A stretch of DNA of 16,655 nucleotides, from the IMG/VR virus record IMGVR_UViG_2619619134_000015, positions 1-16,655 of that record; one strand, written 5' to 3'. Source of the DNA: a virus. Taxonomy: Duplodnaviria; Heunggongvirae; Uroviricota; Caudoviricetes. How positions within the stretch are numbered: position 1 is the stretch's first letter; each line of letters begins with the position of its first letter. The translations under genes and the position numbers were made by a program. The notes under the pieces were generated by a model. The model saw nothing but the letters and a program-made list of their open reading frames with translations. It made no database searches and was not told the DNA's origin. This document shows positions 1 through 16,167 of the stretch, piece after piece.

Positions 1-1314
1 TTAACTTACTGATTTTAATAAGCCTCTGGTGTCACTTTGGTGACTATGGGGCATCATTGGGACATAATCTGTCAGCTTCTGATTCAGCATTGCGATCTGT
101 TCTGCATTGCTGTCAGTCATCCATGCTCCGTATACATTGAATACCATCTGGGCACTTGCATGGCCCATCTGGCTGGCAATGAAGCTTGGGTTTGCTCCGG
201 CAGATAATGACCAGCACGCATAAGTGTGTCGTGACTGGTATGCCTTTCGATGCCTGATCCCTGCACGCTTAATGGCTGTTTCCCATGAGTCACCTACAGA
301 ATCGACTTTGTAGACAAAACCTACCTGTTCGCTTTTTCTAACCACTTGAGGGTTAAACACGAAAGTACATTCATGGTTCACTGAACGTCCATATTCACGT
401 AGTTGCACCTTGATGTTGTACTGCTTACCCAGTCTTGTCATTTCAGCCTGATTTTTCAGGACACTGATAGCGGGCTGGATAAGGTGCACAACCCTGTTTG
501 TGCTTGCTTCAGTTTTCGGTAGAGTGAACTCACCAAGTTTCGTATAATTGCGCCTGATGGTAATTGTTCCTGCCTTCAGATCGATATCTTCCCAGGCCAG
601 GGAGACCAGTTCACCGTGACGCATTCCTGTGTACACAGCCAATGACCACAGGTTTTTCGTCTGCTGATGTCGGCAAGCATCTATCAGGCGAATAAATTCG
701 TCACGAGTTAGCGGATCTGGCTCTGCCCTGGCTCTTTTAAGAGGCTTAATTCCCTGGAAGGGATTTGCTTCTAAGTAACCGTGATCTGCAGCAAACTGAA
801 ACATTCCAGCGATTGTCGTCATGTAATAATTTACAGTAACGACGCTCCGTCCTTTTGCTGCTGCTTTGTTTTTCGTTGAATTCTGATACCCGGTAAGCAA
901 ATCTTTCCTGATATACAGCAATTCCTCTTTGGTTACCGATGACACCAGTCTACTGCCTCCAATTTTCGGAACCATCGTTCTTGCAACGGATTCATAGCGA
1001 TTGAATGCATTTGCAGAGATTTCCATTCGTTTCAGATCCAGCCACTTTTCTTCAAGTTCCTTCACCGTAATTTCTTTTTTACTTACCCCAAAAGCCTGAA
1101 GGTTGGGGGAGTCAGGGAACTGTGCAGCATAATCAAAGCTTCCTGTGCGGATGGCAAAACATACTGATGTCCGCAGTTCCCCGGCGATCTTCCTGTTCTT
1201 GGCAGTGTCAGGGACACCAAGATTTTCCCTGACACGTTTACCTTTAAAATTAAACCAGATGCGTAATGTGCCGCCGTGGTTTTCGACGCCTGTTGGATAT
1301 TTGACTTTATCCAT
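1..1314 (-). CDS. int: Phage integrase, tyrosine site-specific recombinase (437 aa)
   Basis: Complete ORF with the stop at the window edge and an ATG at 1314 preceded by GGAGG. The C-terminal catalytic region has the tyrosine recombinase pattern (RHRKAYQSRHTYA ... Y). It sits at the end of the leftward operon next to an excisionase-like gene. It is not the lambda Int sequence. Confidence 0.9.
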   Translation of the reverse strand: MDKVKYPTGVENHGGTLRIWFNFKGKRVRENLGVPDTAKNRKIAGELRTSVCFAIRTGSFDYAAQFPDSPNLQAFGVSKKEITVKELEEKWLDLKRMEISANAFNRYESVARTMVPKIGGSRLVSSVTKEELLYIRKDLLTGYQNSTKNKAAAKGRSVVTVNYYMTTIAGMFQFAADHGYLEANPFQGIKPLKRARAEPDPLTRDEFIRLIDACRHQQTKNLWSLAVYTGMRHGELVSLAWEDIDLKAGTITIRRNYTKLGEFTLPKTEASTNRVVHLIQPAISVLKNQAEMTRLGKQYNIKVQLREYGRSVNHECTFVFNPQVVRKSEQVGFVYKVDSVGDSWETAIKRAGIRHRKAYQSRHTYACWSLSAGANPSFIASQMGHASAQMVFNVYGAWMTDSNAEQIAMLNQKLTDYVPMMPHSHQSDTRGLLKSVS

Positions 1315-1369
1315 CGATACCTCCAGACGCCCAAGAGCGATACGAGCTTACATATTTCATGATATTAAA

Positions 1370-1606
1370 TCACCTGGGTTGTTTGTTTTTCATTGAGGCG
1401 ACCCAGGCATCTATTGCTTTTCTGTTATACATACATTCACTGGAAGGCTTTGGATTACCGTCTGGTGATACGTGAATATACTCTCTTCCAACCATCCAGC
1501 ATTCTTTCCGGGCCCGAAGAATTGTGCCTGGTTTGAGCCCGGTAATTGCGATAAGAACGCTTTCACAAACCCATTCATTGGGAGCCAGTTGAATCACATT
1601 GCCCAT
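1370..1606 (-). CDS. xis: Excisionase (Xis-like, 78 aa)
   Basis: Small ORF immediately upstream of int on the same strand, with an ATG at 1606 preceded by GAGGT. The motif RARKECWMVGREYIHV resembles lambda Xis VRRWVRECRIFPPPVKDGREYLFHESAV. Confidence 0.7.
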   Translation of the reverse strand: MGNVIQLAPNEWVCESVLIAITGLKPGTILRARKECWMVGREYIHVSPDGNPKPSSECMYNRKAIDAWVASMKNKQPR

Positions 1607-3899: not shown

Positions 3900-3900
3900 A

Positions 3901-4677: not shown

Positions 4678-4699
4678 CTGATGATTTTGCTTTTCATGT

Positions 4700-4915: not shown

Positions 4916-4991
4916 TGAACAAGTCCCATGTCGGCAAGCATAAGCACACAGAATATGAAGCCCGCTGCCAGAAAAATGCATTCAGTGGTTG

Positions 4992-5183: not shown

Positions 5184-5338
5184 ACAGCTCCCCGTTTATT
5201 ATTTATCTCCTCAGCCAGCCGCTGTGCTTTCAGGGGATTTCGGATAACAGAAAGGCCGGGAAATACCCAGCCTCGCTTTGTAACGGAGTAGACGAAAGTG
5301 ATCGCGCCTACCCGGATATTATCGTGAGGATGCTTCAT
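5156..5338 (-). CDS. Lambda orf60a-like protein (60 aa)
   Basis: The ATG at 5336-5338 overlaps the exo stop (ATGA), giving a 60-aa product ([16 protein letters not shown]...). It is immediately downstream of exo, as in lambda. Confidence 0.55.
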
Positions 5339-6015
5339 CGCCATTGCTCCCCAAATACAAAACCAATTTCAGCCAGTGCCTCGTCCATTTTTTCGATGAA
5401 CTCCGGCACCATCTCGTCAAAACTCGCCATGTAATTTTCATCCCGCTCAACCACGACATAATGCAGGCCTTCACGCTTCATTCGTGGGTCATAGTTGGCA
5501 AAGTACCAGGCATCTTTTCGCGTCACCCACATGCTGTACTGCACCTGGGCCATGTAAGCTGACTTTATGGCCTCGAAACCACCGAGCCGGAATTTCATGA
5601 AATCCCGGGAGGTAAACGGGCATTTCAGTTCAAGGCCGTTGCCGTCACTGCATAAACCATCGGGAGAGCAGGCGGTGCGCATACTTTCGTCGCGATAGAT
5701 GATCGGGGATTCAGTAACATTCACGCCGGAAGTAAACTCAAACAGGGCTCTGGCGTCGTTCTCGTACTGTTTTCCCCAGGCCAGCGCCTTAGCATTAACT
5801 TCCGGAGCCACACCGGTGCAAACCTCAGCCAGCAGGGTGTGGAAGTAGGACATTTTCATGTCAGGCCACTTCTTTCCTGAGCGGGGCTTTGCTATCACGT
5901 TGTGAACTTCTGAAGCGGTGATGACGCCGAGCAGTAATTTGTGCCATGCATCATCCCCCTGTTCGACAGCTCTCACGTCGATCCCGGTACGCTGCAGGAT
6001 AATGTCCGGTGTCAT
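5335..6015 (-). CDS. exo: Lambda exonuclease (Red-alpha), 226 aa
   Basis: The protein ([43 protein letters not shown] ... FVFGEQWR) matches lambda Exo as remembered. Its start overlaps the bet stop. Confidence 0.95.
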
Positions 6016-6797
6016 GCTGCCACCTTCTGCTCAGTGGCTTTCTGTTTCAGGAATCCAAGAGCTTTCACTGCTTCGGCCTGTGTCAGTTCTGACGATGCGC
6101 GAATGTCGCGGCGAAATATCTGGGAACAGAGCGGCAATAAGTCGTCATCCCATGTTTTATCCAGGGCGATCAGCAGAGTGTTAATCTCCTGCATGGTTTC
6201 ATCGTTAACCGGAGTGATGTCGCGTTCCGGCTGACGTTCTGCAGTGTATGCAGTATTTTCGACAATGCGCTCGGCTTCATCCTTGTCATAGATACCAGCA
6301 AATCCGAAGGCCAGACGGGCACACTGAATCATGGCTTTATGCCGTAACATCCGTTTGGGATGCGACTGCCACGGTCCGGTGATTTCTCTGCCTTCGCGGG
6401 TTTTGAATGGTTCGCGGCGGCATTCATCCATCCACTCGGTAACGCAGATCGGATGATTACGGTCCTTGCGGTAAATCCGGCATGTACATGATTCATTGTC
6501 CTGCTCAAAGTCCATGCCATCAAACTGCTGGTTTTCATTGATGATACGGGACCAGCCATCAACGCCCACCACCGGAACGATGCCGTTCTGCTTGTCAGGG
6601 AAGGCGTAAATTTCTTTCGTCCACGGATTAAGGCCGTACTGGTTGGCGACGATCAACAATGCGATGAACTGCGCATCGCTGGCATCACCTTTAAATGCCG
6701 TCTGGCGAAGAGTGGTGATCAGTTCCTGTGGGTCGACAGAATCCATGCCGACACGTTCAGCCAGCTTCCCAGCCAGCGTTGCGAGTGCTGTACTCAT
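6012..6797 (-). CDS. bet: Lambda Bet single-strand annealing protein (Red-beta), 261 aa
   Basis: The protein ([66 protein letters not shown]...) matches lambda Bet as remembered. Confidence 0.95.
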
Positions 6798-6802
6798 CCG
6801 TT

Positions 6803-7219
6803 TTATACCTCTGAATCAATATCAACCTGGTGGTGAGCAATGGTTTCAACCATGTACCGGATGTGTTCTGCCATGCGCTCCTGAAACTCAACATCGTCAT
6901 CAAACGCACGGGTAATGGCTTTTTTGCTGGCCCCGTGGCGTTGCAAATGATCGATGCATAGCGATTCAAACAGGTGCTAGGGCAGGCTTTTTTCCATGTC
7001 GTCTGCCAGTTCTGCCTCTTTCTCTTCACGGGCGAGCTGCTGGTAGTGACGCGTCCAGCTCTGAGCCTCAAGACGATCCTGAATGTAATAAGCGTTCATG
7101 GCTGAACTCCTGAAATAGCTGTGAAAATATCGCCCGCGAAATGCCGGGCTGATTAGGAAAACAGGAAAGGGGGTTAGTGAATGCTTTTGCTTGATCTCAG
7201 TTTCAGTATTAATATCCAT
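6803..7219 (-). pseudogene. gam: gam (RecBCD inhibitor) interrupted by an in-frame amber codon
   Basis: The locus is 417 nt, equal to the 138-codon lambda gam. The N-terminal 80 codons ([50 protein letters not shown]...DDMEKSLP) end at a TAG at 6977-6979. Downstream, the same frame encodes [57 protein letters not shown], matching the lambda Gam C-terminus, then a TAA at 6803-6805. Confidence 0.85.
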
Positions 7220-7317
7220 TTTTTATAAGCGTCGACGGCCTCACGAAACATCTTTTCATCGCCAATAAAAGTGGCGATAGTGAATTTAGTCTGGATAGCC
7301 ATAAGTGTTTGATCCAT
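7174..7317 (-). CDS. kil: Kil, host cell-division inhibitor (47 aa)
   Basis: [47 protein letters not shown] matches lambda Kil as remembered. It overlaps the gam start and the cIII 3' end, as in lambda. The ORF-track N-terminal extension to 7443 is an artefact. Confidence 0.8.
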
Positions 7318-7450
7318 TTTTTGGGACTCCTGGCTGATTAAGTATGTCGATAAGGCGTTTCCATCCGTCACGTAATTTACGGGTGATTCGTTCAAGTAAA
7401 GATTCGGAAGGGCAGCCAGCAACAGGCCACCCTGCAATGGCATATTGCAT
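7286..7450 (-). CDS. cIII: CIII, FtsH/HflB inhibitor that stabilises CII (54 aa)
   Basis: The ATG at 7448-7450 begins MQYAIAGWPVAGCP..., the lambda CIII N-terminus. The ORF is 165 nt and is absent from the ORF track because it is under 60 aa. Confidence 0.8.
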   Translation of the reverse strand: MQYAIAGWPVAGCPSESLLERITRKLRDGWKRLIDILNQPGVPKNGSNTYGYPD

Positions 7451-7522
7451 GGTGTGCTCCTTATTTATACATAACGAAAAACGCCTCGAGTGAAGCGTTA
7501 TTGGTATGCGGTAACGCCGCGC

Positions 7523-7891
7523 TCAGGCGGCTTTGATAGTCATATCATCTGAATCAAATATTCCTGATGTATCGATATCGGTAATTCTTATTCCTTCGCT
7601 ACCATCCATTGGAGGCCATCCTTCCTGACCGTTTCCATCATTCCAGTCGAACTCACACACAACACCATATGCATTTAAGTCGCTTGAAATTGCTATAAGC
7701 AGAGCATGTTGCGCCAGCATGATTAATACAGCATTTAATACAGAGCCGTGTTTATTGAGTCGGTATTCAGAGTCTGACCAGAAATTATTAATCTGGTAAA
7801 GTTTTTCCTCTGTCATTACGTCATGGTCGATTTCAATTTCTATTGATGCTTTCCAGTCGTAATCAATGATGTATTTTTTGATGTTTGACAT
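7523..7891 (-). CDS. ea10: Ea10-like protein (122 aa)
   Basis: Its size and its position immediately upstream of cIII match lambda ea10. ATG at 7891. Confidence 0.7.
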   Translation of the reverse strand: MSNIKKYIIDYDWKASIEIEIDHDVMTEEKLYQINNFWSDSEYRLNKHGSVLNAVLIMLAQHALLIAISSDLNAYGVVCEFDWNDGNGQEGWPPMDGSEGIRITDIDTSGIFDSDDMTIKAA

Positions 7892-7910
7892 CTATTCATA
7901 TCCTCACAGA

Positions 7911-7937
7911 TAAAAAATCGCCCTCATACTGGAGGGC
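7911..7937 (-). terminator. Rho-independent terminator (leftward) between the accessory cassette and ea10
   Basis: On the minus strand, a GCCCTC-(6 nt)-GAGGGC hairpin (7920-7937) is followed by GATTTTTTAT. Confidence 0.5.
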
Positions 7938-8041
7938 AAAGAAGATTTCCAATAATCAGAACAAGTCGACTCCTGTTTAGTTACGAGCGACATTGCTCCG
8001 TGTATTCACTCGTTGGAATGAATACACAGTGCTTATTCGTA

Positions 8042-8512
8042 CTAATAAAACACCCAGTTTTCTGTTTCTTGGTTGTGTCCAAAGTTATATTCAATATCTG
8101 GTGTTGATGTATCAATATTCTTCATCCCATCAACAAGAGTTGATGCAACAGCCAAATCTTGTTTGATTCTCATTAAATGGTATTTCTTCCGGCGCAATAA
8201 ACTTTCAATGGCAAGTTTCTTCGTTGGGAATGCAAAAGATCTTTCTGCATTTTTTGCTACTTTCTTAATTGCATATCTATTTCTCTTTTGTTTCCATTCC
8301 TGTAACCACTGATTTGGTGCTGGTTTAAAATTAACAATCCAATGCGCAGGAACCAACCATGCATAATGCTCTGTCTGATGAAAAGCTATATATTGAAGTG
8401 CGAATATTTTGATTCCATCTTCTTCAACTGTCGCCTGGAATCTCCAGAAAACAGGCATTCCATCATGTTCAGTTTCTGATTCAGGAAAAGGTACGCTCCA
8501 TGATTTTGTCAT
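8042..8512 (-). CDS. Hypothetical protein (156 aa), accessory cassette gene A
   Basis: ATG at 8512 preceded by GAGGTGA. It lies in an AT-rich segment (judged by eye) in the position of lambda ral/sieB. No recognisable motifs. Confidence 0.6.
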   Translation of the reverse strand: MTKSWSVPFPESETEHDGMPVFWRFQATVEEDGIKIFALQYIAFHQTEHYAWLVPAHWIVNFKPAPNQWLQEWKQKRNRYAIKKVAKNAERSFAFPTKKLAIESLLRRKKYHLMRIKQDLAVASTLVDGMKNIDTSTPDIEYNFGHNQETENWVFY

Positions 8513-8569
8513 ATCTCACCTCAAATAATTCAGTGCAGTGTTTATTCTGTTGCTTATTCCAAAGCAAAT

Positions 8570-8812
8570 TTAACCAGCAACAAACTCTTCTGGTAATTTA
8601 TCAACCACTTGATGGCTTATTATCAGCCATTTGCCATCCTTCGTTCCGTATGCATATTTCTGGTCTTTTATCATCATGTGTTCAGCTACTGCCTTAACTG
8701 CCTGTTCGGTTACATCTTCTTTCTTTCCCACCCACATTCCTTTTTCAGTGTTTAATGTTCCTTGAAAAATACGACCACTTAATGGGCTTGCGCCCATAGT
8801 TTTGATTTTCAT
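8570..8812 (-). CDS. Hypothetical protein (80 aa; MKIKTMGASPLSGRIFQGT...), accessory cassette gene B
   Basis: Start chosen at the ATG at 8810-8812, preceded by GGAGA. The longer ORF-track start at 8875 has no RBS and would overlap gene C. Confidence 0.5.
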   Translation of the reverse strand: MKIKTMGASPLSGRIFQGTLNTEKGMWVGKKEDVTEQAVKAVAEHMMIKDQKYAYGTKDGKWLIISHQVVDKLPEEFVAG

Positions 8813-8820
8813 ATGTCTCC

Positions 8821-8848
8821 TTAAAAATAAAGGCCGATTATGCGGCCT
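8821..8848 (-). terminator. Hairpin plus T-run (leftward) between cassette genes C and B
   Basis: On the minus strand, an AGGCCG-cataat-CGGCCT hairpin (8831-8848) is followed by TTATTTTTAA, immediately before the gene B RBS. Confidence 0.45.
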
Positions 8849-8852
8849 GAAA

Positions 8853-9176
8853 TTAATTAACCAATGATGCTGCATATTCGATAAGGTAAAGCTTTGGGGC
8901 CAGCCAAATTTTTAACCAAGTCATATTGGTTACTGCACCAATAATAAAATCCCCCCACAGAGTCAAAACTCCAACCAATGGCACGATAAGAAGATTAATA
9001 TCACCTTTGCTATCCCAAACCATTGTCGGCCTGTATTTGGGATTTCCTTTCTCCCATGAATATCCTTCATCACCGATTTCACCTGTCTCAACTCTTTGGC
9101 ACTGCTTCTTCATAAACCAGAAAACCAGTGGGATTGTTAGAATGGCTATTAATGTTTTAATCAGACTGTCAACCAT
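8853..9176 (-). CDS. Small membrane protein (107 aa, two predicted TM helices), accessory cassette gene C
   Basis: Start at the ATG at 9174-9176 (the ORF-track start at 9191 is a TTG). Hydrophobic stretches LIKTLIAILTIPLVFWF and INLLIVPLVGVLTLWGDFIIGAV. RBS is weak. Confidence 0.5.
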   Translation of the reverse strand: MVDSLIKTLIAILTIPLVFWFMKKQCQRVETGEIGDEGYSWEKGNPKYRPTMVWDSKGDINLLIVPLVGVLTLWGDFIIGAVTNMTWLKIWLAPKLYLIEYAASLVN

Positions 9177-9442
9177 ATTCCATAGCAGCAACTGATGAAC
9201 AACATCAGGAATCTGTGCCTGGCTAAATGAAACAGCCGCGTCTATTCCATTGCTGGCTTTTTGCAGTAGTTCTACGAGAATCTTGTTTGCTTGTTCTTCC
9301 GTATATCACCTTAAATAGTGGATTGCGGTAGTAAAGATTGTGCCTGTCTTTTAACCACATCGGGCTCGGTGGTTCCTCCACTTTCCACAGTCAAAGGAAA
9401 TGGGTAGACTGTTGTTTCCACAGTCAAAAGAAGGGCTTTGTT

Positions 9443-9607
9443 ATGACAGATATTGTTAATCCCAAAACCAACCCACACGAAGCCGCTCAACAGATTATTG
9501 TTGAGCTTATCAGAGCCGGTAATCTTGCCCCTGGCATTGACGGAAAGCCAAGCACAGTTGTTTATGAAAAAATTCTTGATGAGATTATCAGAATAAACAG
9601 TAAGTAA
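9443..9607 (+). CDS. Hypothetical small protein (54 aa; MTDIVNPKTNPHEAAQQIIVELIRAGNLAPGIDGKPSTVVYEKILDEIIRINSK)
   Basis: First ATG of the 9338..9607 ORF, preceded by AAGAAGGG. It is the only rightward ORF in the left arm and is preceded by two 18-bp direct repeats. Confidence 0.35.
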   Translation: MTDIVNPKTNPHEAAQQIIVELIRAGNLAPGIDGKPSTVVYEKILDEIIRINSK

Positions 9608-9847
9608 TTAAGAGAACAAAATTTCGAATGCCTGGCGGATGGTTGCAACATCTTCGTTCGTCAGTTTTTTTCGTTCATCTGATGACATCGATAACAATGC
9701 ATTCCTCTCAATCAACGTAGCCAGCAGTTTAGATGCTATATTTTGAACGTCAGGGCTTAACTCTAAGAATTTATTTCGACTACGTTCGAGAATAAGTTGT
9801 GTCGCGGGTGTATCTTTTAACTCAGATATTTTTTTTGTCCAATACAT
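9608..9847 (-). CDS. Hypothetical protein (79 aa from the ATG at 9847) immediately downstream of N
   Basis: The ORF-track start at 9871 is a TTG; the first ATG is at 9845-9847 with a weak RBS. It is convergent with the 54-aa plus-strand ORF. Confidence 0.35.
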   Translation of the reverse strand: MYWTKKISELKDTPATQLILERSRNKFLELSPDVQNIASKLLATLIERNALLSMSSDERKKLTNEDVATIRQAFEILFS

Positions 9848-9904
9848 CAAGCATTTCTTTCGTTTTCTCAATTAGTAATTGTTCAATACATGAAATATCC
9901 ATAA

Positions 9905-10213
9905 TTACCTCGCCGTCAGTTGTTTTGATTTCCGATAGCCTGCCACGTAGATGGCTACGTTTGGCAGGCAAATGCTTCCATTGCATTCGTCGGTATTTTG
10001 GTTACGAATGTTGCCGAGTGATATTGCTTTTTCAGAAAGGCTTAAACGCTTTCTCGGTTCTTTCTGAACAGGTTCATCACTGTCTGTACCGAAGATCGAA
10101 TCGATGATGTTGCATATAGCATCACGCTCGATAGCCAGCTTTCTGCGCCGCTCATGACGGCGAGTTTTGGCATTTCCTGTAAATGTTGATTTCCCGTACA
10201 CGATTACCGTCAT
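9905..10213 (-). CDS. N: N-type transcription antiterminator (102 aa), P22 gp24-like
   Basis: Arginine-rich motif GNAKTRRHERRRKLAIERD near the N-terminus, matching my recollection of P22 gp24. It sits between the immunity region and the recombination genes. The nut sites have P22-type GACAA boxB loops. Confidence 0.8.
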   Translation of the reverse strand: MTVIVYGKSTFTGNAKTRRHERRRKLAIERDAICNIIDSIFGTDSDEPVQKEPRKRLSLSEKAISLGNIRNQNTDECNGSICLPNVAIYVAGYRKSKQLTAR

Positions 10214-10392
10214 GATGTTTTCCTCATGTAAAATGGCTTTGGTGGTGAGGTAGGTGGGAGACCCATTTCGACCTGTTTCGGCCTACTTCAATTCGGCAAT
10301 AGTCCCGCAGGCCTCGCCGCTTTACGTGCGACATATTCCCGTCCATGAACCCTTCACCACACCGCCAAACCCATCTCGTTTGGTATCTGTTT

Positions 10393-10426
10393 GCGCTTTG
10401 TCAGCGCCCCATCGAAGTTAAAGAGC
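10393..10426 (-). promoter_or_regulatory. nutL (boxA-like GCTCTTTAA plus boxB hairpin GCGCU-GACAA-AGCGC)
   Basis: Read on the minus strand: boxA-like GCTCTTTAA, a roughly 10-nt spacer, then a perfect 5-bp stem with a GACAA pentaloop. Confidence 0.55.
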
Positions 10427-10776
10427 CCGCCAATCTGTTCCGTTTGGCTTCCAACGTCCTGCTGATGGCGATAATAATGAACCAGTAGTTCGATATTATC
10501 AAGAACTATTGGTACGAATCGTTTATGATTTATTAACTCTACGAAATATGATTTTGATATATAAGGAAATTTATTTTTGTAAATGTTGCGGATGAAGGTT
10601 ATGCGGCAGGGATCAGAATTGCGTGGTTTAGCAAGTTGTATCTATTTATTTTTCAATAAATACAATTGGTTATGTGTTTTTAGATGGTGGATCGGGAGGC
10701 AAAGAAAACTGCTAGGTAGAAAACTGTGGGCACAAAAAAGCTAATGTGGAGTTGTTTGATCTTTTTAGGGGAATAA
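10427..10776 (-). promoter_or_regulatory. Presumed pL/OL region (promoter and operators not resolved)
   Basis: AT-rich non-coding segment between the terminator of the cI-linked module and nutL. Position only; no confident -35/-10 or operator assignment. Confidence 0.3.
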
Positions 10777-10803
10777 GAAAACCCGCCGAAGCGGGTGTTT
10801 TTG
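10777..10803. terminator. Bidirectional rho-independent terminator (AAAACCCGC-CGAA-GCGGGTGTTTTT)
   Basis: GC-rich 6-bp stem with a 4-nt loop flanked by an A-run on one side and a T-run on the other. It lies immediately after the stop of the 40-aa ORF, in the position of the lambda immunity-operon terminator. Confidence 0.7.
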
Positions 10804-10804
10804 G

Positions 10805-10927
10805 TTATGCTGCCATTGGAAGCTTTGATGCTAGCATTTCTGCTTTTCTCTGCTTCATTTCAGCAATAATCTGATTGATTCGATCCGCACTTTTAAGCAT
10901 ATCTTTGATATGTTCAGTTCTAGACAT
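10805..10927 (-). CDS. Hypothetical small protein (40 aa; MSRTEHIKDMLKSADRINQIIAEMKQRKAEMLASKLPMAA)
   Basis: Not in the ORF track because it is under 60 aa. ATG at 10925-10927 preceded by GGAGG at 6-nt spacing, 23 nt after the stop of the 120-aa gene. A TAA stop is followed directly by the terminator. Confidence 0.5.
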   Translation of the reverse strand: MSRTEHIKDMLKSADRINQIIAEMKQRKAEMLASKLPMAA

Positions 10928-10950
10928 GTTTATCCTCCGCTCTGTAAGTG

Positions 10951-11313
10951 TCAAAGACCCGATTTAGCACTCTTGAGTAGTTTTGATCCCTCAGAGCACA
11001 AATCAGGATTCTTTTCTCTTATGTTTTTGATTAAAATCTGTGCAAATATGATGATTTGCTTTAAGTTTAGTTCATTGATTGCATCAGCTTTTTGGTCAAG
11101 TTTCTCTAGCTCTGCATCTAATTCGTCAAGAGATGGGTTTGTTAACTCATGCAACCCTTCAATTCCAAGCTCTTCAAGACTGGTTGTAACAAATTCAATC
11201 AGACCGATTACAGCCTTTTTGACGCTATATATCTGCTTCTCCTCTGCGGAGGCCTCTGCACTTGGAACCAATGCTAAGGTTTTCAGATATTCATTCGTTT
11301 CATCTTGGGTCAC
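10951..11313 (-). CDS. Hypothetical acidic protein (120 aa) in the rexA/rexB position downstream of cI
   Basis: GTG start at 11311-11313 preceded by AAGGAG at 8-nt spacing. Same strand as cI and AT-rich. The overlapping plus-strand ORF 10910..11434 has antisense-like S/F-rich composition. Confidence 0.55.
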   Translation of the reverse strand: MTQDETNEYLKTLALVPSAEASAEEKQIYSVKKAVIGLIEFVTTSLEELGIEGLHELTNPSLDELDAELEKLDQKADAINELNLKQIIIFAQILIKNIREKNPDLCSEGSKLLKSAKSGL

Positions 11314-11479
11314 TAACTATACTCCTTATATATGCTCGATCAACCCATTTTGCAACCGCATTTACTGGGATAGAGCTTTTTTTACAATAGTCTTATGTGT
11401 ATATTTACAACGTTGTTTGTGGATAGGGTTATGATTTGTACCTAAAACCTGTCGCATTTTCGTCTCTATGCTATTGGTA

Positions 11480-12187
11480 TTAATAATTTCTCAGCCACTC
11501 CCTTGCCTCGATGTCATCCAGATGGCGAGATTGCTTCAGAATACCAGCCACATACTCCACCTTTGCTACTTGATGATAAGGCAACGTTATTGGTCTGTGG
11601 TCCTGGTTGATGCTTGTAAATTGGTATTCTCCATCTCTGTCATAGCCAAGAATCTTGATCATGTTGTGTCCTTCGATGGTTCTGACAAACACCTCATCAC
11701 CCGGGAATACTTTGGTGTTAGGCTCAATGAGTACATATTCTCCTGATTTTATTCTGGGCCACATGCTGTCTCCTTTCACACGAAGACCAAAGGCATCTGG
11801 ATCATCGCTATAAATCTTGAGCCACCCATCGCGTTCTTCGGTCATCTCGATGGCACCATCAACACCAAGAATTGCCTCACCAACCACGCGCACTAACCCT
11901 TTTTTTAATTTGCCAACAAATGAAAGAGTATCTTCATCATTCGCTCCATTTAACGAAGTGCCGTGCTGAAGCCAAACAACATCAACGTTTAGAAATTTCG
12001 CAAGCGCATTCATTTTTTCCTGACGCGGTAAAGACTCAGCATTAAACCATTTGCTAACGCCTTTGGACGAAAGAGAAAGGGCACGGGCTATAGCCATTCC
12101 CCTACCATGTTCATCAAGACCAGCTTCTTTACAGGCTTGCGCTAGCCGCTGGGCGAATTCTTTGCGCACTTTTTCATTCTGAACCAT
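11480..12187 (-). CDS. cI: CI-type prophage repressor (235 aa), HTH N-terminal domain plus LexA/S24-like self-cleaving C-terminal domain
   Basis: N-terminal HTH region (GMAIARALSLSSKGVSKWFNAE) and a C-terminal domain with the Ser (GDSMWP) and downstream Lys typical of the S24 peptidase fold. It is divergent from cro. It is not the lambda cI sequence. Confidence 0.85.
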   Translation of the reverse strand: MVQNEKVRKEFAQRLAQACKEAGLDEHGRGMAIARALSLSSKGVSKWFNAESLPRQEKMNALAKFLNVDVVWLQHGTSLNGANDEDTLSFVGKLKKGLVRVVGEAILGVDGAIEMTEERDGWLKIYSDDPDAFGLRVKGDSMWPRIKSGEYVLIEPNTKVFPGDEVFVRTIEGHNMIKILGYDRDGEYQFTSINQDHRPITLPYHQVAKVEYVAGILKQSRHLDDIEAREWLRNY

Positions 12188-12265
12188 GAGTACGATACTA
12201 AAGCACTTGCAAAAACTTTCAGTTCAATCATAATGCGTACTGAAAGTACGAAAAAGGATATTCCT
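12188..12265. promoter_or_regulatory. OR/pR/pRM region between cI and cro
   Basis: Candidate pR: -35 TTGCAA (12207-12212) and -10 CATAAT (12229-12234) at 16-nt spacing. A perfect palindrome CGTACtgaaaGTACG (12235-12249) and inverted 9-mers ACTTTCAGT/ACTGAAAGT are candidate operator elements. Confidence 0.45.
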
Positions 12266-12493
12266 ATGCAAAATCTTGATGAGCCGATTAAAGGTGTCGG
12301 CATACCTGAAGTTGCGAAGGCTTGTGGAGTTAGCGAAAGGGCTGTCTATAAGTGGCTCAAAAACGGCTTCCTCCCTAAGACTGAGTTTTTTGGGAAAACG
12401 AAATACGCCTCAAAAATCGAAGAGATTTCTGGTGGCAAATATCAAGCAAGCGAAATGCTTGAAATAAGTAAAAAGAACCTTCTGGCTGCATAA
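12266..12493 (+). CDS. cro: Cro-type repressor (75 aa)
   Basis: ATG at 12266 preceded by AAGGA. HTH motif AKACGVSERAVYKWLKNG. It is divergent from cI and followed by nutR. Confidence 0.7.
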   Translation: MQNLDEPIKGVGIPEVAKACGVSERAVYKWLKNGFLPKTEFFGKTKYASKIEEISGGKYQASEMLEISKKNLLAA

Positions 12494-12500
12494 GTAACAC

Positions 12501-12535
12501 CGCTCTTTATCAATCTGCACCGCCGACAACGCGGT
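12501..12535 (+). promoter_or_regulatory. nutR (boxA CGCTCTTTA plus boxB-like hairpin with GACAA loop)
   Basis: CGCTCTTTA at 12501-12509, then ACCGCCGACAACGCGGT at 12519-12535. A hairpin/T-rich stretch (cactcatcgaaagatgagtattagtgattattt) follows and is a possible tR1. Confidence 0.55.
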
Positions 12536-12599
12536 AACTAATTAAGCACTCATCGAAAGATGAGTATTAGTGATTATTTACCTATGGAAATAGTAAGAA

Positions 12600-12896
12600 A
12601 TGGAAAGAACAAGTTACAGCAAACTATCACAGCGTGACGTTGATCGCGCAGAAACAGATTTACTTATCAATCTGTCAGCTATTACCCAGCGCGGTCTGGC
12701 AAAGATGATTGGCTGTCATGAATCGAAGATAAGCAGAACGGACTGGCGGTTTATTGCTTCGGTCCTGTGTGCTTTCGGAATGGCATCAGACATCAGTCCG
12801 ATTAGCAGGGCTTTTAAGTATGCGCTTGATGAAATCATCAATAAAAAACGCCCGGCGGCAACCGAGCGTTCTGAACAAATCCAGATGGAATTCTGA
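12600..12896 (+). CDS. cII: CII transcriptional activator (98 aa), chimeric: divergent N-terminal part, lambda-identical C-terminus
   Basis: The C-terminus NKKRPAATERSEQIQMEF is identical to lambda CII. The N-terminal 80 residues are homologous in pattern but divergent. Confidence 0.8.
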   Translation: MERTSYSKLSQRDVDRAETDLLINLSAITQRGLAKMIGCHESKISRTDWRFIASVLCAFGMASDISPISRAFKYALDEIINKKRPAATERSEQIQMEF

Positions 12897-12917
12897 GATC
12901 ATTACTGGATCAATCCA
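12842..12917 (-). ncRNA. oop: OOP antisense RNA with its terminator
   Basis: On the minus strand, the 3' end reads GTTGCCGCCGGGCGTTTTTTAT, the characteristic lambda oop terminator. The body is antisense to the cII 3' end. The 5' end is estimated by lambda homology (GGATTGATCCAGTAATGA...). Confidence 0.6.
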
Positions 12918-12928
12918 CAGGAGTCATT

Positions 12929-13867
12929 ATGACAAATACAGCAAAAATACTCAACTTCTGCAGAGGTAACTTTGCCAAACAGGAGCGTAATGTGGCAGAT
13001 CTCGATGATGGTTACGCCAGACTATCAAATATGCTGATTGAGGCTTATTCAGGCGCAGATCTGACCAAGCGACAGTTTAAAGTGCTGCTTGCCATTCTGC
13101 GTAAAACCTATGGGTGGAATAAACCAATGGACAGAATCACCGATTCTCAACTTAGCGAGATTACAAAGTTACCTGTCAAACGGTGCAATGAAGCCAAGTT
13201 AGAACTCGTCAGAATGAATATTATCAAGCAGCAAGGCGGCATGTTTGGACCAAATAAAAACATCTCAGAATGGTGCATCCCTCAAAACGAGGGAGGTTCC
13301 CCTAAAATGAGGGACATCCCTCAAAACGAGGGAAAATCCCCTAAAACGAGGGATAAAACATCCCTCAAATTAGGGGATTGCTATCCCTCAAAACAGGGGG
13401 ACACAAAAGACACTATTACAAAAGAAAAAAGAAAAGATTATTCGTCCGAGAATTCTGGCGAATCCTCTGACCAGCCAGAAAACGATCTTTCTGTGGTTAA
13501 ACCGGATGCTGCAATTCAGAGCGGCAGCAAGTGGGGAACAGCAGAAGACCTGACCGCCGCAGAGTGGATGTTTGACATGGTGAAGACCATCGCACCATCA
13601 GCCAGAAAACCGAATTTTGCAGGGTGGGCTAACGATATCCGCCTGATGCGTGAACGTGACGGACGTAACCACCGCGACATGTGCGTGCTGTTCCGCTGGG
13701 CATGCCAGGACAACTTCTGGTCCGGTAACGTGCTAAGTCCGGCCAAACTCCGCGACAAGTGGACCCAGCTCGAAATCAACCGTAACAAGCAACAGGCTGG
13801 CGTGACAGCTGGAAAACCAAAACTCGACCTGACAAACACTGACTGGATTTACGGGGTGGATTTATGA
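12929..13867 (+). CDS. O: Replication initiator O (312 aa)
   Basis: MTNTAKILNF...TDWIYGVDL matches lambda O as remembered, except for a 13-aa insertion (GGSPKMRDIPQNE) that corresponds to two extra ori iterons. Confidence 0.95.
   Translation: MTNTAKILNFCRGNFAKQERNVADLDDGYARLSNMLIEAYSGADLTKRQFKVLLAILRKTYGWNKPMDRITDSQLSEITKLPVKRCNEAKLELVRMNIIKQQGGMFGPNKNISEWCIPQNEGGSPKMRDIPQNEGKSPKTRDKTSLKLGDCYPSKQGDTKDTITKEKRKDYSSENSGESSDQPENDLSVVKPDAAIQSGSKWGTAEDLTAAEWMFDMVKTIAPSARKPNFAGWANDIRLMRERDGRNHRDMCVLFRWACQDNFWSGNVLSPAKLRDKWTQLEINRNKQQAGVTAGKPKLDLTNTDWIYGVDL
13278..13401. repeat. ori-lambda-type iteron array within O: six roughly 18-bp iterons (TCCCTCAAAACGAGGGA-like) at about 20-bp periodicity
   Basis: Iterons at approximately 13278, 13298, 13317, 13337, 13361 and 13384, followed by an A-rich region (acaaaagacactattacaaaagaaaaaagaaaag). 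Confidence 0.85.
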
Positions 13868-14565
13868 AAAACATCGCCGCACAGATGGTTAACTTTGACC
13901 GTGAGCAGATGCGTCGGATCGCCAACAACATGCCGGAACAGTACGACGAAAAGCCGCAGGTACAACAGGTAGCGCAGATCATCAACGGTGTGTTCAGCCA
14001 GTTACTGGCAACTTTCCCGGCGAGTCTGGCTAACCGGGACCAGAACGAACTGAATGAAATCCGCCGCCAGTGGGTTCTGGCTTTCCGGGAAAACGGGATC
14101 ACCTCGATGGAACAGGTTAACGCAGGAATGCGCGTAGCCCGTCGGCAGAATCGACCATTTCTTCCATCACCCGGGCAGTTTGTTGCATGGTGCCGGGAAG
14201 AAGCATCCGTTATCGCCGGACTGCCAAACGTCAGCGAGCTGGTTGATATGGTTTACGAGTATTGCCGGAAGCGAGGCCTGTATCCGGATGCAGAGTCTTA
14301 TCCGTGGAAATCGAACGCGCACTACTGGCTGGTTACCAACCTGTACCAGAACATGCGGGCCAATGCGCTGACTGACGCGGAATTACGACGCAAGGCTGCC
14401 GATGAACTGACCTGTATGACAGCGCGAATTAACCGTGGTGAGACGATACCTGAACCAGTAAAACAACTTCCTGTCATGGGCGGCAGACCTCTAAATCGTG
14501 TTCAGGCGCTGGCGAAGATCGCAGAAATTAAAGCTAAGTTCGGACTGAAAGGAGCAAGTGTATGA
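13864..14565 (+). CDS. P: Replication protein P (DnaB helicase loader), 233 aa
   Basis: MKNIAAQMVNFDREQMRRIANNMPEQYDEKPQVQQVAQIINGVFSQLLATFPAS... matches lambda P as remembered. Its start overlaps the O stop (ATGA). Confidence 0.95.
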   Translation: MKNIAAQMVNFDREQMRRIANNMPEQYDEKPQVQQVAQIINGVFSQLLATFPASLANRDQNELNEIRRQWVLAFRENGITSMEQVNAGMRVARRQNRPFLPSPGQFVAWCREEASVIAGLPNVSELVDMVYEYCRKRGLYPDAESYPWKSNAHYWLVTNLYQNMRANALTDAELRRKAADELTCMTARINRGETIPEPVKQLPVMGGRPLNRVQALAKIAEIKAKFGLKGASV

Positions 14566-14852
14566 CGGGCAAAGAGGCAATTATTCATTACCTGGGGACG
14601 CATAATAGCTTCTGTGCGCCGGACGTTGCCGCGCTAACAGGCGCAACAGTAACCAGCATAAATCAGGCTGCGGCTAAAATGGCGCGGGCAGGAATCCTGG
14701 TCATTGATGGTAAGGTCTGGCGAACGGTGTATTACCGGTTTGCTACCAGGGAAGAACGGGAAGGAAAGGTGAGCACGAACCTGATTTTTAAGGAGTGTCG
14801 CCAGAGTGCAGCGATGAAACGGGTATTGGCGGTATATGGAGTTAAAAGATGA
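14562..14852 (+). CDS. ren: Ren (96 aa)
   Basis: MTGKEAIIHYLGTHNSFCAPDVAALTGATVTSINQAAAKMARAGILVIDGKVWRT... matches lambda Ren as remembered. Confidence 0.9.
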   Translation: MTGKEAIIHYLGTHNSFCAPDVAALTGATVTSINQAAAKMARAGILVIDGKVWRTVYYRFATREEREGKVSTNLIFKECRQSAAMKRVLAVYGVKR

Positions 14853-14876
14853 CCATCTACATCACTGAGCTAATAA

Positions 14877-14907
14877 CAGGCCTGCTGGTAATCGCAGGCC
14901 TTTTTAT
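14877..14907 (+). terminator. Rho-independent terminator (tR2-like)
   Basis: AGGCCTGC-tggtaatc-GCAGGCCT hairpin followed by TTTTTATTT, just downstream of ren. Confidence 0.6.
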
Positions 14908-14922
14908 TTGGGGGAGAGGGAA

Positions 14923-15240
14923 GTGAACGATAGCTACCGACAGTTTGAAAACTGGTGGTCAAAAGACAAAAGCCAGTTCACGGGAGACGATGAATTAAAA
15001 GAGTTTGCCTGGGTGATATGGCAGGCATCGCGCTCTGCTATTGAACTGGATATCGACTGGCCCGAATCGAATGACGACTTTTGGAAAGATGGTGAAGAAG
15101 GTGCTTATGCGATGGGTTATGAGGATGGGAGAGACAAAACGGTAATTGCAGTAATGAAAGCTATCAGATCCGCTGGAATTAAAGAGAAGAATTTCGATGA
15201 AGCAAATATACATGCTTCGCAACGAAGCAATCAGAAATAA
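14923..15240 (+). CDS. Hypothetical acidic protein (about 105 aa)
   Basis: GTG start at 14923 preceded by GGGAGAGGG; the ORF-track start at 14908 is a TTG inside the terminator T-run. Its 3' end overlaps the ninB start by about 44 nt in another frame. Confidence 0.45.
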   Translation: MNDSYRQFENWWSKDKSQFTGDDELKEFAWVIWQASRSAIELDIDWPESNDDFWKDGEEGAYAMGYEDGRDKTVIAVMKAIRSAGIKEKNFDEANIHASQRSNQK

Positions 15241-15643
15241 CGCCATAGACGCAATACTCTCACTTCCCATCGACGACAAGTCACCCCACGAAGTCCACCT
15301 TAAAGAACCCAAACGCAGCAAAGCGCAGAATGACCGTATGTGGCCGATGCTGAACGATGTTTCGCGTCAGGTGCTATGGCATGGTCAACGGCTGGCACCG
15401 GAAGACTGGAAAGACCTGTTCACTGCCCTGTGGCTTAAGACCAAAAAACTGGAGCAACGAAGTGTTCCTGGTATCGACGGTGGCGTTGTCATGCTTGGCG
15501 TGCGTACCAGCAAAATGCGAAAGGCCAGCATGACTGAGCTTATCGAAATCATGTTCTGGTTCGGCTCAGAGCGCAACGTGCGGTGGAGTGATGACTCCCG
15601 GCGAGAGTATGAATGGTCACAACGAAAAGGGAAGGCTGCATGA
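15197..15643 (+). CDS. ninB: NinB-like recombination protein (148 aa)
   Basis: Clear but diverged similarity to lambda NinB (QNDRMWPMLNDVSRQVLWHGQRL..., VRWSD..., C-terminal GKAA). Start could be the ATG at 15197 or at 15212. Confidence 0.8.
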   Translation: MKQIYMLRNEAIRNNAIDAILSLPIDDKSPHEVHLKEPKRSKAQNDRMWPMLNDVSRQVLWHGQRLAPEDWKDLFTALWLKTKKLEQRSVPGIDGGVVMLGVRTSKMRKASMTELIEIMFWFGSERNVRWSDDSRREYEWSQRKGKAA

Positions 15644-16167
15644 CTATCAAATCAAATACACCAGCGTCAGATAGGTATCGGCTTATTGAGGATTATCTGT
15701 ATTTAGACGGAGATACAGTCAGATACAAAAAGGACTCGCTAAAACACCCCAACCACAGCCACCGGGCCGGAGATGAAATTAAAACATCGATAAATGGATC
15801 TGGGTATAGACAGGTGTGTTTTGCAGGCATTCAGATGTTTGTTCACGTAGTTGTTTTTGCGCTGCACAACAAAAGAATGCCATTGAAAAATATTGACCAT
15901 ATTAACGGAAACAGGCTGGACAATTCCCCAAAAAATCTTAGGGAGGCAAACCGGATAGCAAACAGCCGAAATCAGAAAACTAAGTGCAATAGCCGTTCTG
16001 GAATAAAAAATGTTTTATGGAACAAGCAAAAAAATAAATGGGCCGTTCAAGTGCGCACAGATTTTGGCCGGTTGCATTTTGGGTTCTATGAAGATCTTGA
16101 GCTTGCTGGTTTGGTTGCCAGTGAGGCTATCAACAAATATCACGGACAATATGCGAGGGTTGAATGA
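15640..16167 (+). CDS. HNH homing-type endonuclease with a C-terminal AP2-like DNA-binding domain (175 aa)
   Basis: HNH core (HNKRMPLKNIDHINGNRLDNSPKNLREANRIANSRN) followed by a segment typical of AP2-like domains in phage HNH endonucleases (SGIKNVLWNKQKNKWAVQV...FGFYEDLELA). Its ATG overlaps the ninB stop (ATGA) and its stop overlaps the next gene start (ATGA). Confidence 0.75.
   Translation: MTIKSNTPASDRYRLIEDYLYLDGDTVRYKKDSLKHPNHSHRAGDEIKTSINGSGYRQVCFAGIQMFVHVVVFALHNKRMPLKNIDHINGNRLDNSPKNLREANRIANSRNQKTKCNSRSGIKNVLWNKQKNKWAVQVRTDFGRLHFGFYEDLELAGLVASEAINKYHGQYARVE

What the first reader, a model, noticed from the sequence alone, without database searches (positions are those of the whole stretch)
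10393..12535. Mosaic control circuitry: P22-type N and nut sites driving lambda-type Red/kil/cIII and O/P genes
Both nut sites have boxB hairpins with GACAA pentaloops, the P22 N-binding type (nutL GCGCUGACAAAGCGC). The N N-terminus resembles P22 gp24. The downstream genes (exo, bet, gam, kil, cIII, ea10, O, P, ren) are lambda-type, and int/xis and cI/cro are of yet other types. This documents module exchange at the nut and immunity boundaries.
Basis: partly seen in the sequence, partly recalled or inferred. Interest (0 to 1): 0.35.

Follow-up and report, generated by a model that had tools for sequence, protein, structure and literature searches.

The report
Ordinary lambdoid mosaic with P22-type N
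This is the early control region of a lambda-family E. coli prophage that pairs a P22-type antiterminator (N and its two RNA target sites) with 933W-type immunity and lambda-type recombination and replication genes; the module shuffling is real but well known, and the only new item is a small two-gene cassette of unknown function beside the repressor gene.

Summary
nutL (10393-10427, - strand) and nutR (12501-12535, + strand) carry boxA plus boxB elements identical to the P22 boxB sequences. N (9905-10213, -) has the P22 gp24 arginine-rich motif unchanged.

The flanking genes are 94-100% identical to lambda at protein level: exo, bet, kil, cIII and ea10 on the left, O, P and ren on the right. 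They are equally close or closer to Stx phage 933W.

No phage or complete E. coli genome covers 80% or more of the window, so the mosaic claim stands. It is ordinary, though:
- 933W itself already combines a GACAA boxB with lambda-type Red and O/P genes.
- The isolated coliphage Lambda_ev203 has the same N/nut + imm933W + Red + O/P circuitry.
- The nutL-PL-cI-cro-nutR-cII block recurs at 98-99.5% identity in at least five other backgrounds.

Extras:
- gam carries an amber codon.
- An HNH endonuclease gene is inserted in the nin region.
- The cI-to-N "rex slot" holds a rare, conserved, uncharacterised cassette (orf120 + orf40 + terminator). This is the only potentially novel element.

The parts
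9905..10213 (-). N antiterminator gene (102 aa). It has a P22 gp24-type arginine-rich motif and N-terminal region, and a 933W/P22-type C-terminus.
   Evidence: Pfam PF25694 at 130.9 bits. PHROG 271 N-like. Alignment with P22, 933W and lambda N. Identity table.
10393..10427 (-). nutL: boxA GGCTCTTTA (10419-10427), an 11-nt spacer, and boxB GCGCTGACAAAGCGC (10393-10407).
   Evidence: The boxB is identical to P22 nutL.
10466..10515 (-). PL promoter (-35 TTGATA 10497-10502; -10 CATTAT 10474-10479; inferred start at ATCAGCAGGACG, 10466) and 933W-like OL operator half-sites.
   Evidence: Promoter scan. Inverted repeats. Alignment with the 933W PL/OL region.
10781..10796 (-). Intrinsic terminator that ends the cI-orf120-orf40 transcription unit (the counterpart of lambda t_imm).
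   Evidence: An equivalent terminator follows the cassette in all 8 relatives examined.
10805..10927 (-). orf40: a conserved 40-aa basic helical peptide, partner of orf120.
   Evidence: No family hit.
10951..11313 (-). orf120: an acidic all-helical protein of unknown function in the cI-N 'rex slot'. It is preceded by a conserved promoter-like/SD element at 11314-11360.
   Evidence: There is no DNA match in the phage collection.
11480..12187 (-). cI repressor (235 aa, HTH + Peptidase_S24), 933W type.
   Evidence: 98% aa identity to 933W CI.
12180..12250 (+). OR3 (12180-12194), OR2 (12212-12226) and OR1 (12236-12250), each identical to the 933W operator. PR: -35 at 12207-12212, -10 at 12229-12234.
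12266..12493 (+). cro (75 aa), 100% identical to 933W Cro.
   Evidence: The start was chosen by homology with the 933W and RefSeq annotations.
12501..12535 (+). nutR: boxA CGCTCTTTA (12501-12509), a 9-nt spacer, and boxB ACCGCCGACAACGCGGT (12519-12535).
   Evidence: The boxB is identical to P22 nutR. This roughly 70-bp patch (about 12505-12575) is the only part of cro-cII that diverges from 933W (68% identity in that bin).
12548..12565 (+). Hairpin ACTCATC-GAAA-GATGAGT downstream of boxB, in the tR1 position. P22, 933W and lambda each have a hairpin of different sequence here.
   Evidence: Read from the sequence and the alignment. Its function is inferred.
12600..12896 (+). cII (98 aa), with the oop terminator (12845-12872, -) and the oop promoter (12926-12954, -).
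   Evidence: Pfam Phage_CII. Scans. 85% identical to 933W CII.
12929..14852 (+). O (12929-13867), P (13864-14565) and ren (14562-14852): lambda/933W-type replication module.
14878..14901 (+). tR2-like intrinsic terminator. N-modified polymerase must read through it to reach the nin genes.
   Evidence: The region is conserved with the annotated P22 terminator at 34703-34728.
5335..7891 (-). Lambda-type PL-operon genes: exo (5335-6015), bet (6012-6797), gam (6803-7219, with an amber codon at 6977-6979), kil (7174-7317), cIII (7286-7450, with its RNA thermoregulator at 7405-7463) and ea10 (7523-7891).
1..1606 (-). int (1-1314) and xis (1370-1606), phiP27/PhiR49_2 type.
   Evidence: 99.8% to PhiR49_2, 94.3% to phiP27.. 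Only 68% aa identity to 933W Int.

Best explanation
The window is the early (int-to-nin) region of a natural E. coli lambdoid prophage assembled from modules that circulate in the enterobacterial lambdoid pool.

Its regulatory core spans 9905-12936 and contains N, nutL, PL/OL, a two-gene cargo, cI, OR/PR, cro, nutR and cII. Two parts of this core define its specificities:
- Immunity is 933W-type: the 933W-type repressor, Cro and operators.
- Antitermination is P22 gp24 class: N with the P22 arginine-rich motif, and boxB hairpins identical to those of P22.

How it works is inferred from lambda and P22. After the repressor is lost, PL and PR fire. N is the first PL product. Its arginine-rich motif binds the GACAA boxB in the nascent nutL and nutR RNAs, while boxA recruits NusB/NusE. 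The modified polymerase then reads through downstream terminators. On the left these are the terminator-like sites at 7918-7939 and 7480-7499, giving expression of ea10, cIII, kil, bet, exo, xis and int. On the right they are the tR1 region and tR2 (14878-14901), giving expression of cII, O, P, ren and the nin genes.

Because N acts only through RNA sites next to the promoters, the downstream cargo can be of any type. That is why this N/nut set sits in front of lambda/933W-type genes here and in front of P22-like erf/abc2/primase genes elsewhere.

Shown here: the sequences, their identities, the gene order and the module boundaries. Inferred: promoter use, N binding and antitermination.
For: nut sites and N ARM:
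- Both match P22 (PMC11480772 for the solved P22 N-peptide/boxB pair).
- N belongs to Pfam N_peptide.

Positions are canonical: nutL lies between PL and N, and nutR between cro and cII.

Immunity is 933W-type: cI 98%, cro 100%, OR1-3 identical.

The neighbouring genes are lambda/933W-type (Rfam cIII element). Terminators lie downstream.

Modularity:
- The block 10353-12936 is 98-99.5% identical in contigs L004-L007 and in E. coli 214-4, where the flanks differ (erf/abc2, Toprim or DnaB replication, Rad52/ssb).
- Phage Lambda_ev203 has the same N/nut + imm933W + Red + O/P layout.
- Junctions from 10246 to 12936 are each spanned by independent records.

Literature:
- Lambdoid mosaicism extends down to protein domains (PMC3202840).
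- gp24 specificity lies in the N-terminal 75 aa and the C-terminus is exchangeable (PMC8022706).
Against: No functional data exist for this phage.
- The nutL boxA has G instead of C at position 1 (GGCTCTTTA).
- nutR boxB has a C.C closing mismatch, although P22 has the same.
- gam carries an amber codon, and the prophage may be defective elsewhere, since only 16.7 kb is visible.
- 933W N has a different ARM but the same nutL boxB. The 'P22-type' label therefore describes a specificity class broader than P22 itself. Cross-reactivity between these N proteins is untested here.
Confidence: 0.88

Rival explanations
1. This is not an exchange with P22. The window is simply a 933W-family (Stx-phage-like) early region carrying one of several N/nut alleles that are endemic in E. 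coli lambdoid phages. The resemblance to P22 reflects a shared ancient allele family, not a lambda x P22 hybrid event.
For: - Nucleotide identity to P22 is only 72% over the 5' half of N plus nutL. By contrast it is 90-94% to E. coli phages such as Lambda_ev203, the O121 Stx2a phages and L004.
- 284 phage records, mostly from Escherichia and Stx phages, encode a related N.
- The 933W nutL boxB is the same 15-mer.
- The N leader, PL/OL, cI, cro, O, P and ninB are all 933W-like.
Against: This refines the main explanation more than it contradicts it. The ARM and both boxB elements are still identical to P22, so the functional class is the same.
Confidence: 0.6
2. The mosaic is an assembly chimera: reads from several co-resident lambdoid prophages were joined at shared sequences.
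For: Lambdoid prophages share long near-identical stretches, and E. coli genomes hold up to 12 matching places each. The junctions at about 2030-2180, 2700-3170, 3850-4150, 8750-9350 and 15150-16275 are not spanned by any locus I held.
Against: Every junction inside the finding (10246, 10353, 10709, 11485, 12500, 12936) is spanned at 98-99% identity by independent records. One of these is a closed E. coli chromosome (L011) and another is a separate metagenome contig (L014). Lambda_ev203 independently shows the same order. Reading frames are intact across the junctions.
Confidence: 0.05
3. The N/nut system is a decaying remnant in a defective prophage and no longer drives anything.
For: gam has a nonsense codon. 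In E. coli 214-4 the same block has an IS66 element inserted between nutL and N.
Against: The N ORF, its SD, the ARM, both nut sites, PL, PR, the operators, cI, cro, cII, O and P are all intact and are 96-100% identical to those of functional phages.
Confidence: 0.1

Closest known systems
Salmonella phage P22 gene 24 protein with its nutL/nutR sites (N-peptide/boxB complex, PDB 1A4T)
   Same: ARM residues 14-30 are identical. The nutL boxB is identical at 15/15 and the nutR boxB at 17/17. The boxA-spacer-boxB layout and the positions relative to PL/N and cro/c1 are the same (PMC11480772).
   Different: Overall N identity is only 65%, and nucleotide identity is 72%. The N C-terminus is closer to 933W N (20/22 identical, against 15/22 for P22). 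The surrounding genes are not P22-like: there is no erf, abc, c2 or 18/12.
Escherichia phage Lambda_ev203 (LR597650, genus Jouyvirus)
   Same: It has the same circuitry. N is 86% identical at aa level. nutR is identical and nutL is P22-type. cI/cro are imm933W. The lambda-type Red genes are 97.6% identical over 4406-8032. cI through ren is 95.5% identical over 11485-14924.
   Different: int/xis and the ea genes differ. The 8033-9900 region differs. The cargo between cI and N is a single 299-aa hypothetical protein. There is no HNH insertion. It covers only about half of the window.
Stx2 phage 933W (and H-19B-type N/nut)
   Same: The following are 96-100% identical: exo, bet, kil, cIII, ea10, cI, cro, the OR operators, O, P, ren and ninB. 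The nutL boxB 15-mer is the same.
   Different: 933W N is 127 aa with a different ARM. Its nut sites have an extra spacer hairpin and a degenerate boxA. It carries the stk cargo instead of orf120/orf40. Its cII is 85% and its int 68% identical.
Phage lambda N/nut and the laboratory lambda-immP22 hybrids
   Same: The architecture and logic are the same: PL-nutL-N, and PR-cro-nutR-cII-O-P. The Red, kil, cIII and O/P genes are 95-100% identical at protein level. From my own knowledge (not verified with the tools): lambda-P22 hybrids showed decades ago that P22 gene 24 with its own nut sites can drive lambda genes.
   Different: Lambda N is only 27% identical over 52 aa. The lambda boxB loops are GAAGA/GAAAA. 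Lambda immunity and rexAB are absent.
Cargo loci downstream of the repressor: lambda rexAB and BTP1 bstA
   Same: orf120/orf40 occupies the same slot, directly downstream of cI and ending in a terminator before PL. PMC8585504 describes this interval as a mosaic hotspot that holds abortive-infection genes.
   Different: There is no sequence, profile or fold similarity to RexA/B, BstA, Stk or any PADLOC model. The proteins are much smaller and have no membrane segment.

Membership tests
Lambdoid N/nut antitermination, P22 gp24 specificity class | [quoted passage not shown] | tested here: met
   GNAKTRRHERRRKLAIER is identical. Pfam N_peptide scores 130.9 bits against a cut-off of 27.9.
Lambdoid N/nut antitermination, P22 gp24 specificity class | boxB hairpins with a GACAA loop in both nutL and nutR. 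| tested here: met
   The nutL 15-mer and the nutR 17-mer are identical to P22. The nutR loop is closed by a C.C mismatch, as in P22.
Lambdoid N/nut antitermination, P22 gp24 specificity class | boxA (CGCUCUUUA) a few nucleotides 5' of boxB. | tested here: met
   nutR has CGCTCTTTA exactly. nutL has GGCTCTTTA, one mismatch that leaves the GCUCUUUA core intact.
Lambdoid N/nut antitermination, P22 gp24 specificity class | nutL lies between PL and N, nutR lies between cro and cII, and terminators lie downstream. | tested here: met
Lambdoid N/nut antitermination, P22 gp24 specificity class | N- and Nus-dependent read-through of terminators. | not testable with these tools
   This needs reporter or transcriptome experiments.
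imm933W immunity group | CI and Cro near-identical to those of 933W, with the same operator sequences. | tested here: met
   cI 98%, cro 100%. OR1, OR2 and OR3 each have 0 mismatches. The OL region is 82% identical with the half-sites conserved.
Lambda Red recombination module | Intact exo, bet and gam genes. | tested here: not met
   exo is 97% and bet 100% identical and both are intact. gam has a TAG at codon 81 of the long form, which is codon 41 of the 98-aa form.
Lambda-type O/P replication module | Phage_rep_O initiator plus Phage_lambda_P helicase loader, followed by ren. | tested here: met
   Pfam hits. O is 95%/99% and P 97%/100% identical to lambda/933W.
Known anti-phage defence systems (for orf120/orf40) | Profile match to a described defence protein. 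| tested here: not met
   PADLOC gives only AbiEi at E=0.004 and 14.8 bits, which I treat as chance. There is no Pfam or NCBIfam hit. Foldseek against PDB and BFVD finds nothing below E=0.3.
Lysogen-expressed repressor-linked cargo (rexAB/bstA-like locus) | Located directly downstream of the prophage repressor, on the same strand, and closed by a terminator. | tested here: met
   This holds for the window, for the metagenome contigs L004, L006 and L007, and for 7 of the 8 further loci examined in Serratia, Raoultella and other hosts. The exception is a Pantoea prophage remnant.

The most novel reading that the evidence does not exclude
The orf120 + orf40 cassette (10775-11360, - strand) may be a previously undescribed, portable, prophage-encoded superinfection-exclusion or abortive-infection system.

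It consists of an acidic helical-bundle protein, a 40-aa basic helical partner, a conserved promoter-like/SD element of its own, and a terminator. It would be expressed in lysogens from the repressor operon or from its own promoter, and so would be functionally analogous to rexAB or bstA.

It is rare: 21 clusters among 5.8 billion. It is conserved as a pair across Escherichia, Serratia, Pectobacterium, Pantoea, Raoultella, Edwardsiella and Salmonella prophages that carry unrelated repressors.
Probability: 0.35. Interest if true: 0.5.

Novelty: new member of a known kind. Interest (0 to 1): 0.2.

Why it matters
As a mosaic, it matters little. It is a clean textbook case of the modular theory of lambdoid phage evolution, and it illustrates three known points:
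- The N ARM and both nut sites travel together.
- The immunity cassette cI-OR-cro can be exchanged between them.
- The N C-terminus can itself be swapped.

It may be useful as a natural test set for N/boxB specificity, because 933W-type and P22-type N proteins here share a boxB.

The more useful lead is the uncharacterised two-gene cassette in the repressor-N hotspot. That site has already yielded RexAB, Stk and BstA. If the cassette is a defence system, it would add a very small new one.

Tried and rejected
- **Rfam scan**: no family covers nut sites. Only the lambda cIII thermoregulator was significant. The snR191, mir-2 and rliG hits fell below their gathering scores and were dismissed.
- **PDB sequence search with N**: it returned only a chance hit (E=0.64). 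I assume, without checking, that the 1A4T peptide is too short to be in that library. I used the literature sequence instead.
- **Looking for the source or a collinear record:**
  - Megablast of the whole window against phages and complete E. coli genomes found none with 80% or more coverage.
  - Exact junction probes found one partial contig in IMG/VR, a single 2,999-bp contig in metagenomes, and nothing in the GTDB genomes.
- **Function of orf120:**
  - Pfam, NCBIfam and PADLOC gave nothing; the only PHROG match (phrog_16322, E=1.7e-6) is a family of unknown function.
  - A profile search of 1.84 billion representatives found only 29 small stand-alone relatives.
  - The AlphaFold model is of moderate quality (pLDDT 68.6).
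  - Foldseek against PDB and BFVD returned only generic or designed four-helix bundles and HPt-like domains at E>0.3. These are not interpretable.
- **AbiEi PADLOC hit** (14.8 bits): rejected as chance.
- **The scan's promoter call TTGATC-16-TATAGT** immediately upstream of the orf120 GTG: rejected, because transcription would start beyond the start codon.
- **Literature search for 'Lambda_ev' phages**: found nothing.
Full report
**What is in the window**

ORF listing and profile searches show a complete lambdoid early region.
- On the - strand: int (1-1314), xis (1370-1606), ea-type genes, exo, bet, gam, kil, cIII, ea10, several small genes, N (9905-10213), two small ORFs (10805-10927 and 10951-11313) and cI (11480-12187).
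- On the + strand: cro (12266-12493), cII (12600-12896), O, P, ren, ninB, an HNH endonuclease gene and the start of a DNA methyltransferase gene.

**Check of the observation**

*nutL.* The 15-mer GCGCTGACAAAGCGC occurs once, at 10393-10407 (-). Only 0.04 matches are expected by chance, even allowing two mismatches. It lies 11 nt downstream of GGCTCTTTA. It folds as a 5-bp stem with a GACAA loop. It is the exact P22 boxB-left RNA of the solved P22 N-peptide complex (PMC11480772; P22 record).

*nutR.* This is CGCTCTTTA, 9 nt, then ACCGCCGACAACGCGGT at 12501-12535 (+). Its boxB is identical to P22 nutR. As in P22, the GACAA is flanked by a C.C mismatch, so the computed loop is 7 nt.

*N.* It matches Pfam N_peptide over its full length (130.9 bits). 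It is 40/44 identical to gp24 at the N-terminus, and residues 14-30 (GNAKTRRHERRRKLAIER) are unchanged.

**Module map**

| Window region | Content | Closest relative and identity |
|---|---|---|
| 1-2032 | int, xis | Escherichia phage PhiR49_2 99.8%; phiP27 94%; 933W Int only 68% (aa) |
| 4091-8032 | orf61 to ea10 | lambda 96.9% nt; 933W 97.5% nt over 4344-8528 |
| 8528-9290 | small genes | other phages (Gally, HF4s, Oslo) |
| 9291 to about 12700 | N, nutL, cargo, cI, cro, nutR, cII | about 100% to a prophage of E. coli 214-4, where an IS66 element separates N from nutL |
| 12900-14600 | O, P, ren | about 100% to 933W; 94.6% to lambda over 12835-14924 |

At protein level, identities to lambda/933W are:
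- exo 97/97%
- bet 100/100%
- kil 100/98%
- cIII 100/98%
- ea10 99/98%
- O 95/99%
- P 97/100%
- ren 96/97%

Rfam finds the lambda cIII thermoregulator at 7405-7463 (88.5 bits).

The "other type" cI/cro is 933W immunity. cI is 98% and Cro 100% identical, and OR1, OR2 and OR3 each match the annotated 933W operators with no mismatch. The PL/OL region and the N leader are also 933W-like (82% nt).

**Where the breakpoints lie**

Relative to 933W, identity is 96-100% through cI and cro. It collapses inside boxA of nutR, at about 12505 (68% in that 100-bp bin). It is intermediate in cII and returns to about 100% at the start of O. On the other side, identity ends exactly at the cI stop codon (11485) and resumes at 10709, downstream of the cargo.

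Relative to metagenome contigs L004-L007, one 2.58-kb block (10353-12936) is 98.1-99.5% identical. This block contains nutL, PL, the cargo, cI, cro, nutR and cII. The flanks of those contigs are P22-like: erf, abc2 and Toprim or DnaB replication genes.

So nut sites do mark boundaries when the comparison is with 933W. In other comparisons, the whole nut-to-nut immunity block plus cII is what moves.

All junctions between 10246 and 12936 are spanned by independent records, including a closed chromosome. The core is therefore not an assembly chimera.

**N is itself mosaic**

The window and L004 combine the P22-type N-terminal two-thirds with a 933W-like C-terminus (..CLPNVAIYxAGYRKSKQLTAR). L007 and the O121 Stx2a prophage combine the same N-terminal part with a lambda-like C-terminus (..RKPRSEMGVTCxGRQK..).

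This matches what is published for phage L versus P22. There, the N-terminal 75 residues and the boxB sites are conserved, the C-termini are unrelated, and the proteins are interchangeable (PMC8022706).

**How unusual is the combination?**

No single record is collinear with the window: 0 records with 80% or more coverage among 50,697 phage records and 5,426 complete E. coli genomes. However:
- The 933W nutL boxB is the same 15-mer, so a GACAA boxB ahead of lambda-type Red and O/P genes has been on record since 933W was sequenced.
- tblastn finds related N genes in 284 phage records, mostly Escherichia and Stx phages.
- The isolated coliphage Lambda_ev203 (LR597650) has the same circuitry. Its N is 86% identical, its nutL is P22-type and its nutR is identical. 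It has imm933W. Its Red genes are 97.6% identical. Its cI-to-ren segment is 95.5% identical.

Nucleotide identity to P22 itself is only 72%. The N allele therefore belongs to a family endemic in E. coli phages, and a recent import from P22 is unlikely. Pervasive mosaicism of lambdoid phages, down to protein domains, is established (PMC3202840).

**Mechanism** (inferred from lambda and P22)

PL is assigned to TTGATA-17-CATTAT at 10474-10502, with the conserved ATCAGCAGGACG start. PR is assigned to 12207-12234. Both are controlled by the 933W-type repressor.

N binds boxB in the nascent nutL and nutR RNAs. With the Nus factors recruited at boxA, it makes the polymerase terminator-resistant. Candidate terminators on the N-dependent paths are:
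- 7918-7939 and 7480-7499 (- strand)
- the tR1-position hairpin at 12548-12565
- the tR2 homologue at 14878-14901 (+ strand)

None of this is tested here.

**The cargo inside the finding's coordinates**

Between cI and PL lies a 775-bp segment (10710-11484) with no DNA match in the phage collection, even at low stringency. It encodes three elements:
- orf120: GTG start with a strong SD, pI 4.6, five predicted helices, pLDDT 68.6.
- orf40: pI 9.8, with no hydrophobic segment.
- an intrinsic terminator at 10781-10796.

Only 21 clusters in 5.8 billion proteins are homologous to orf120. A profile search of 1.84 billion representatives finds 29.

I examined eight further loci, from Serratia, Raoultella, Pantoea and unnamed assemblies.
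- All eight keep the pair and a terminator.
- Seven have the pair directly downstream of a Peptidase_S24 repressor. These repressors are of different types, 212-257 aa.
- The eighth, in Pantoea, lies in a prophage remnant with no repressor gene upstream.

A conserved element, TTGAAA-17-TATATA-AGGAGTATAGTTAGTG, precedes orf120 in all of the aligned loci.

No Pfam, NCBIfam, PADLOC or fold match gives a function.

The slot corresponds to rexAB in lambda, stk in 933W, NYN/DUF3024 in O121 phages and bstA in BTP1. It has been described as a mosaic hotspot that holds abortive-infection genes (PMC8585504). A defence or exclusion role is therefore a reasonable but untested guess.

**Verdict**

The phenomenon is ordinary for lambdoid phages, and this circuitry already exists in a sequenced isolate. 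Interest is low (0.2). The uncharacterised cassette is the one item worth an experiment.

Noticed in passing
window 10775-11360 (- strand): A rare two-gene cassette, orf120 (acidic, helical) plus orf40 (basic peptide) plus a terminator, sits in the cI-N 'rex slot'. It has no known family or fold. The pair is conserved downstream of unrelated CI-type repressors in prophages of several enterobacterial genera. A conserved promoter-like/SD element lies upstream.
   Followed up: partly
window 6977-6979 (- strand), within gam 6803-7219: gam is 99% identical to lambda/933W gam but carries a CAG-to-TAG change (Q81* in the long form, Q41* in the 98-aa form). It is therefore a nonsense allele or a sequencing error.
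   Followed up: partly
window 15613-16167 (+ strand): A 184-aa HNH endonuclease gene (PHROG 99) lies between ninB and the DNA methyltransferase gene, which are adjacent in 933W. It looks like a homing-endonuclease-type insertion. A NUMOD4 protein occupies the same place in the O121 Stx2a prophage (L012).
   Followed up: no
N genes of L007 (6749-7174) and L012 (8868-9209), compared with window 9905-10213: N is recombinant within the gene. The same P22-type N-terminal two-thirds is joined to a lambda-like C-terminus in L007 and the O121 Stx2a phage, but to a 933W/P22-like C-terminus in the window, L004 and Lambda_ev203.
   Followed up: partly
L011 (E. coli 214-4, NZ_CP025840) locus 9545-11970: This prophage is about 100% identical to window 9291-12700, but an IS66-family element (ISEc43) is inserted between nutL and the N start codon. 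That should uncouple N from PL.
   Followed up: no
window 10608-10709: A roughly 100-bp stretch lies upstream of OL and just downstream of the cargo terminator. It is conserved with both lambda (85% nt identity in the BLAST alignment, between OL3 and rexB) and 933W. It marks the left edge of the variable cargo slot. Its function was not examined.
   Followed up: no
window 12548-12565 (+ strand): The hairpin ACTCATC-GAAA-GATGAGT lies just after nutR boxB. P22, 933W and lambda each have a hairpin of different sequence at the same place, so the form is conserved but the sequence is not. This is probably the tR1 region.
   Followed up: no
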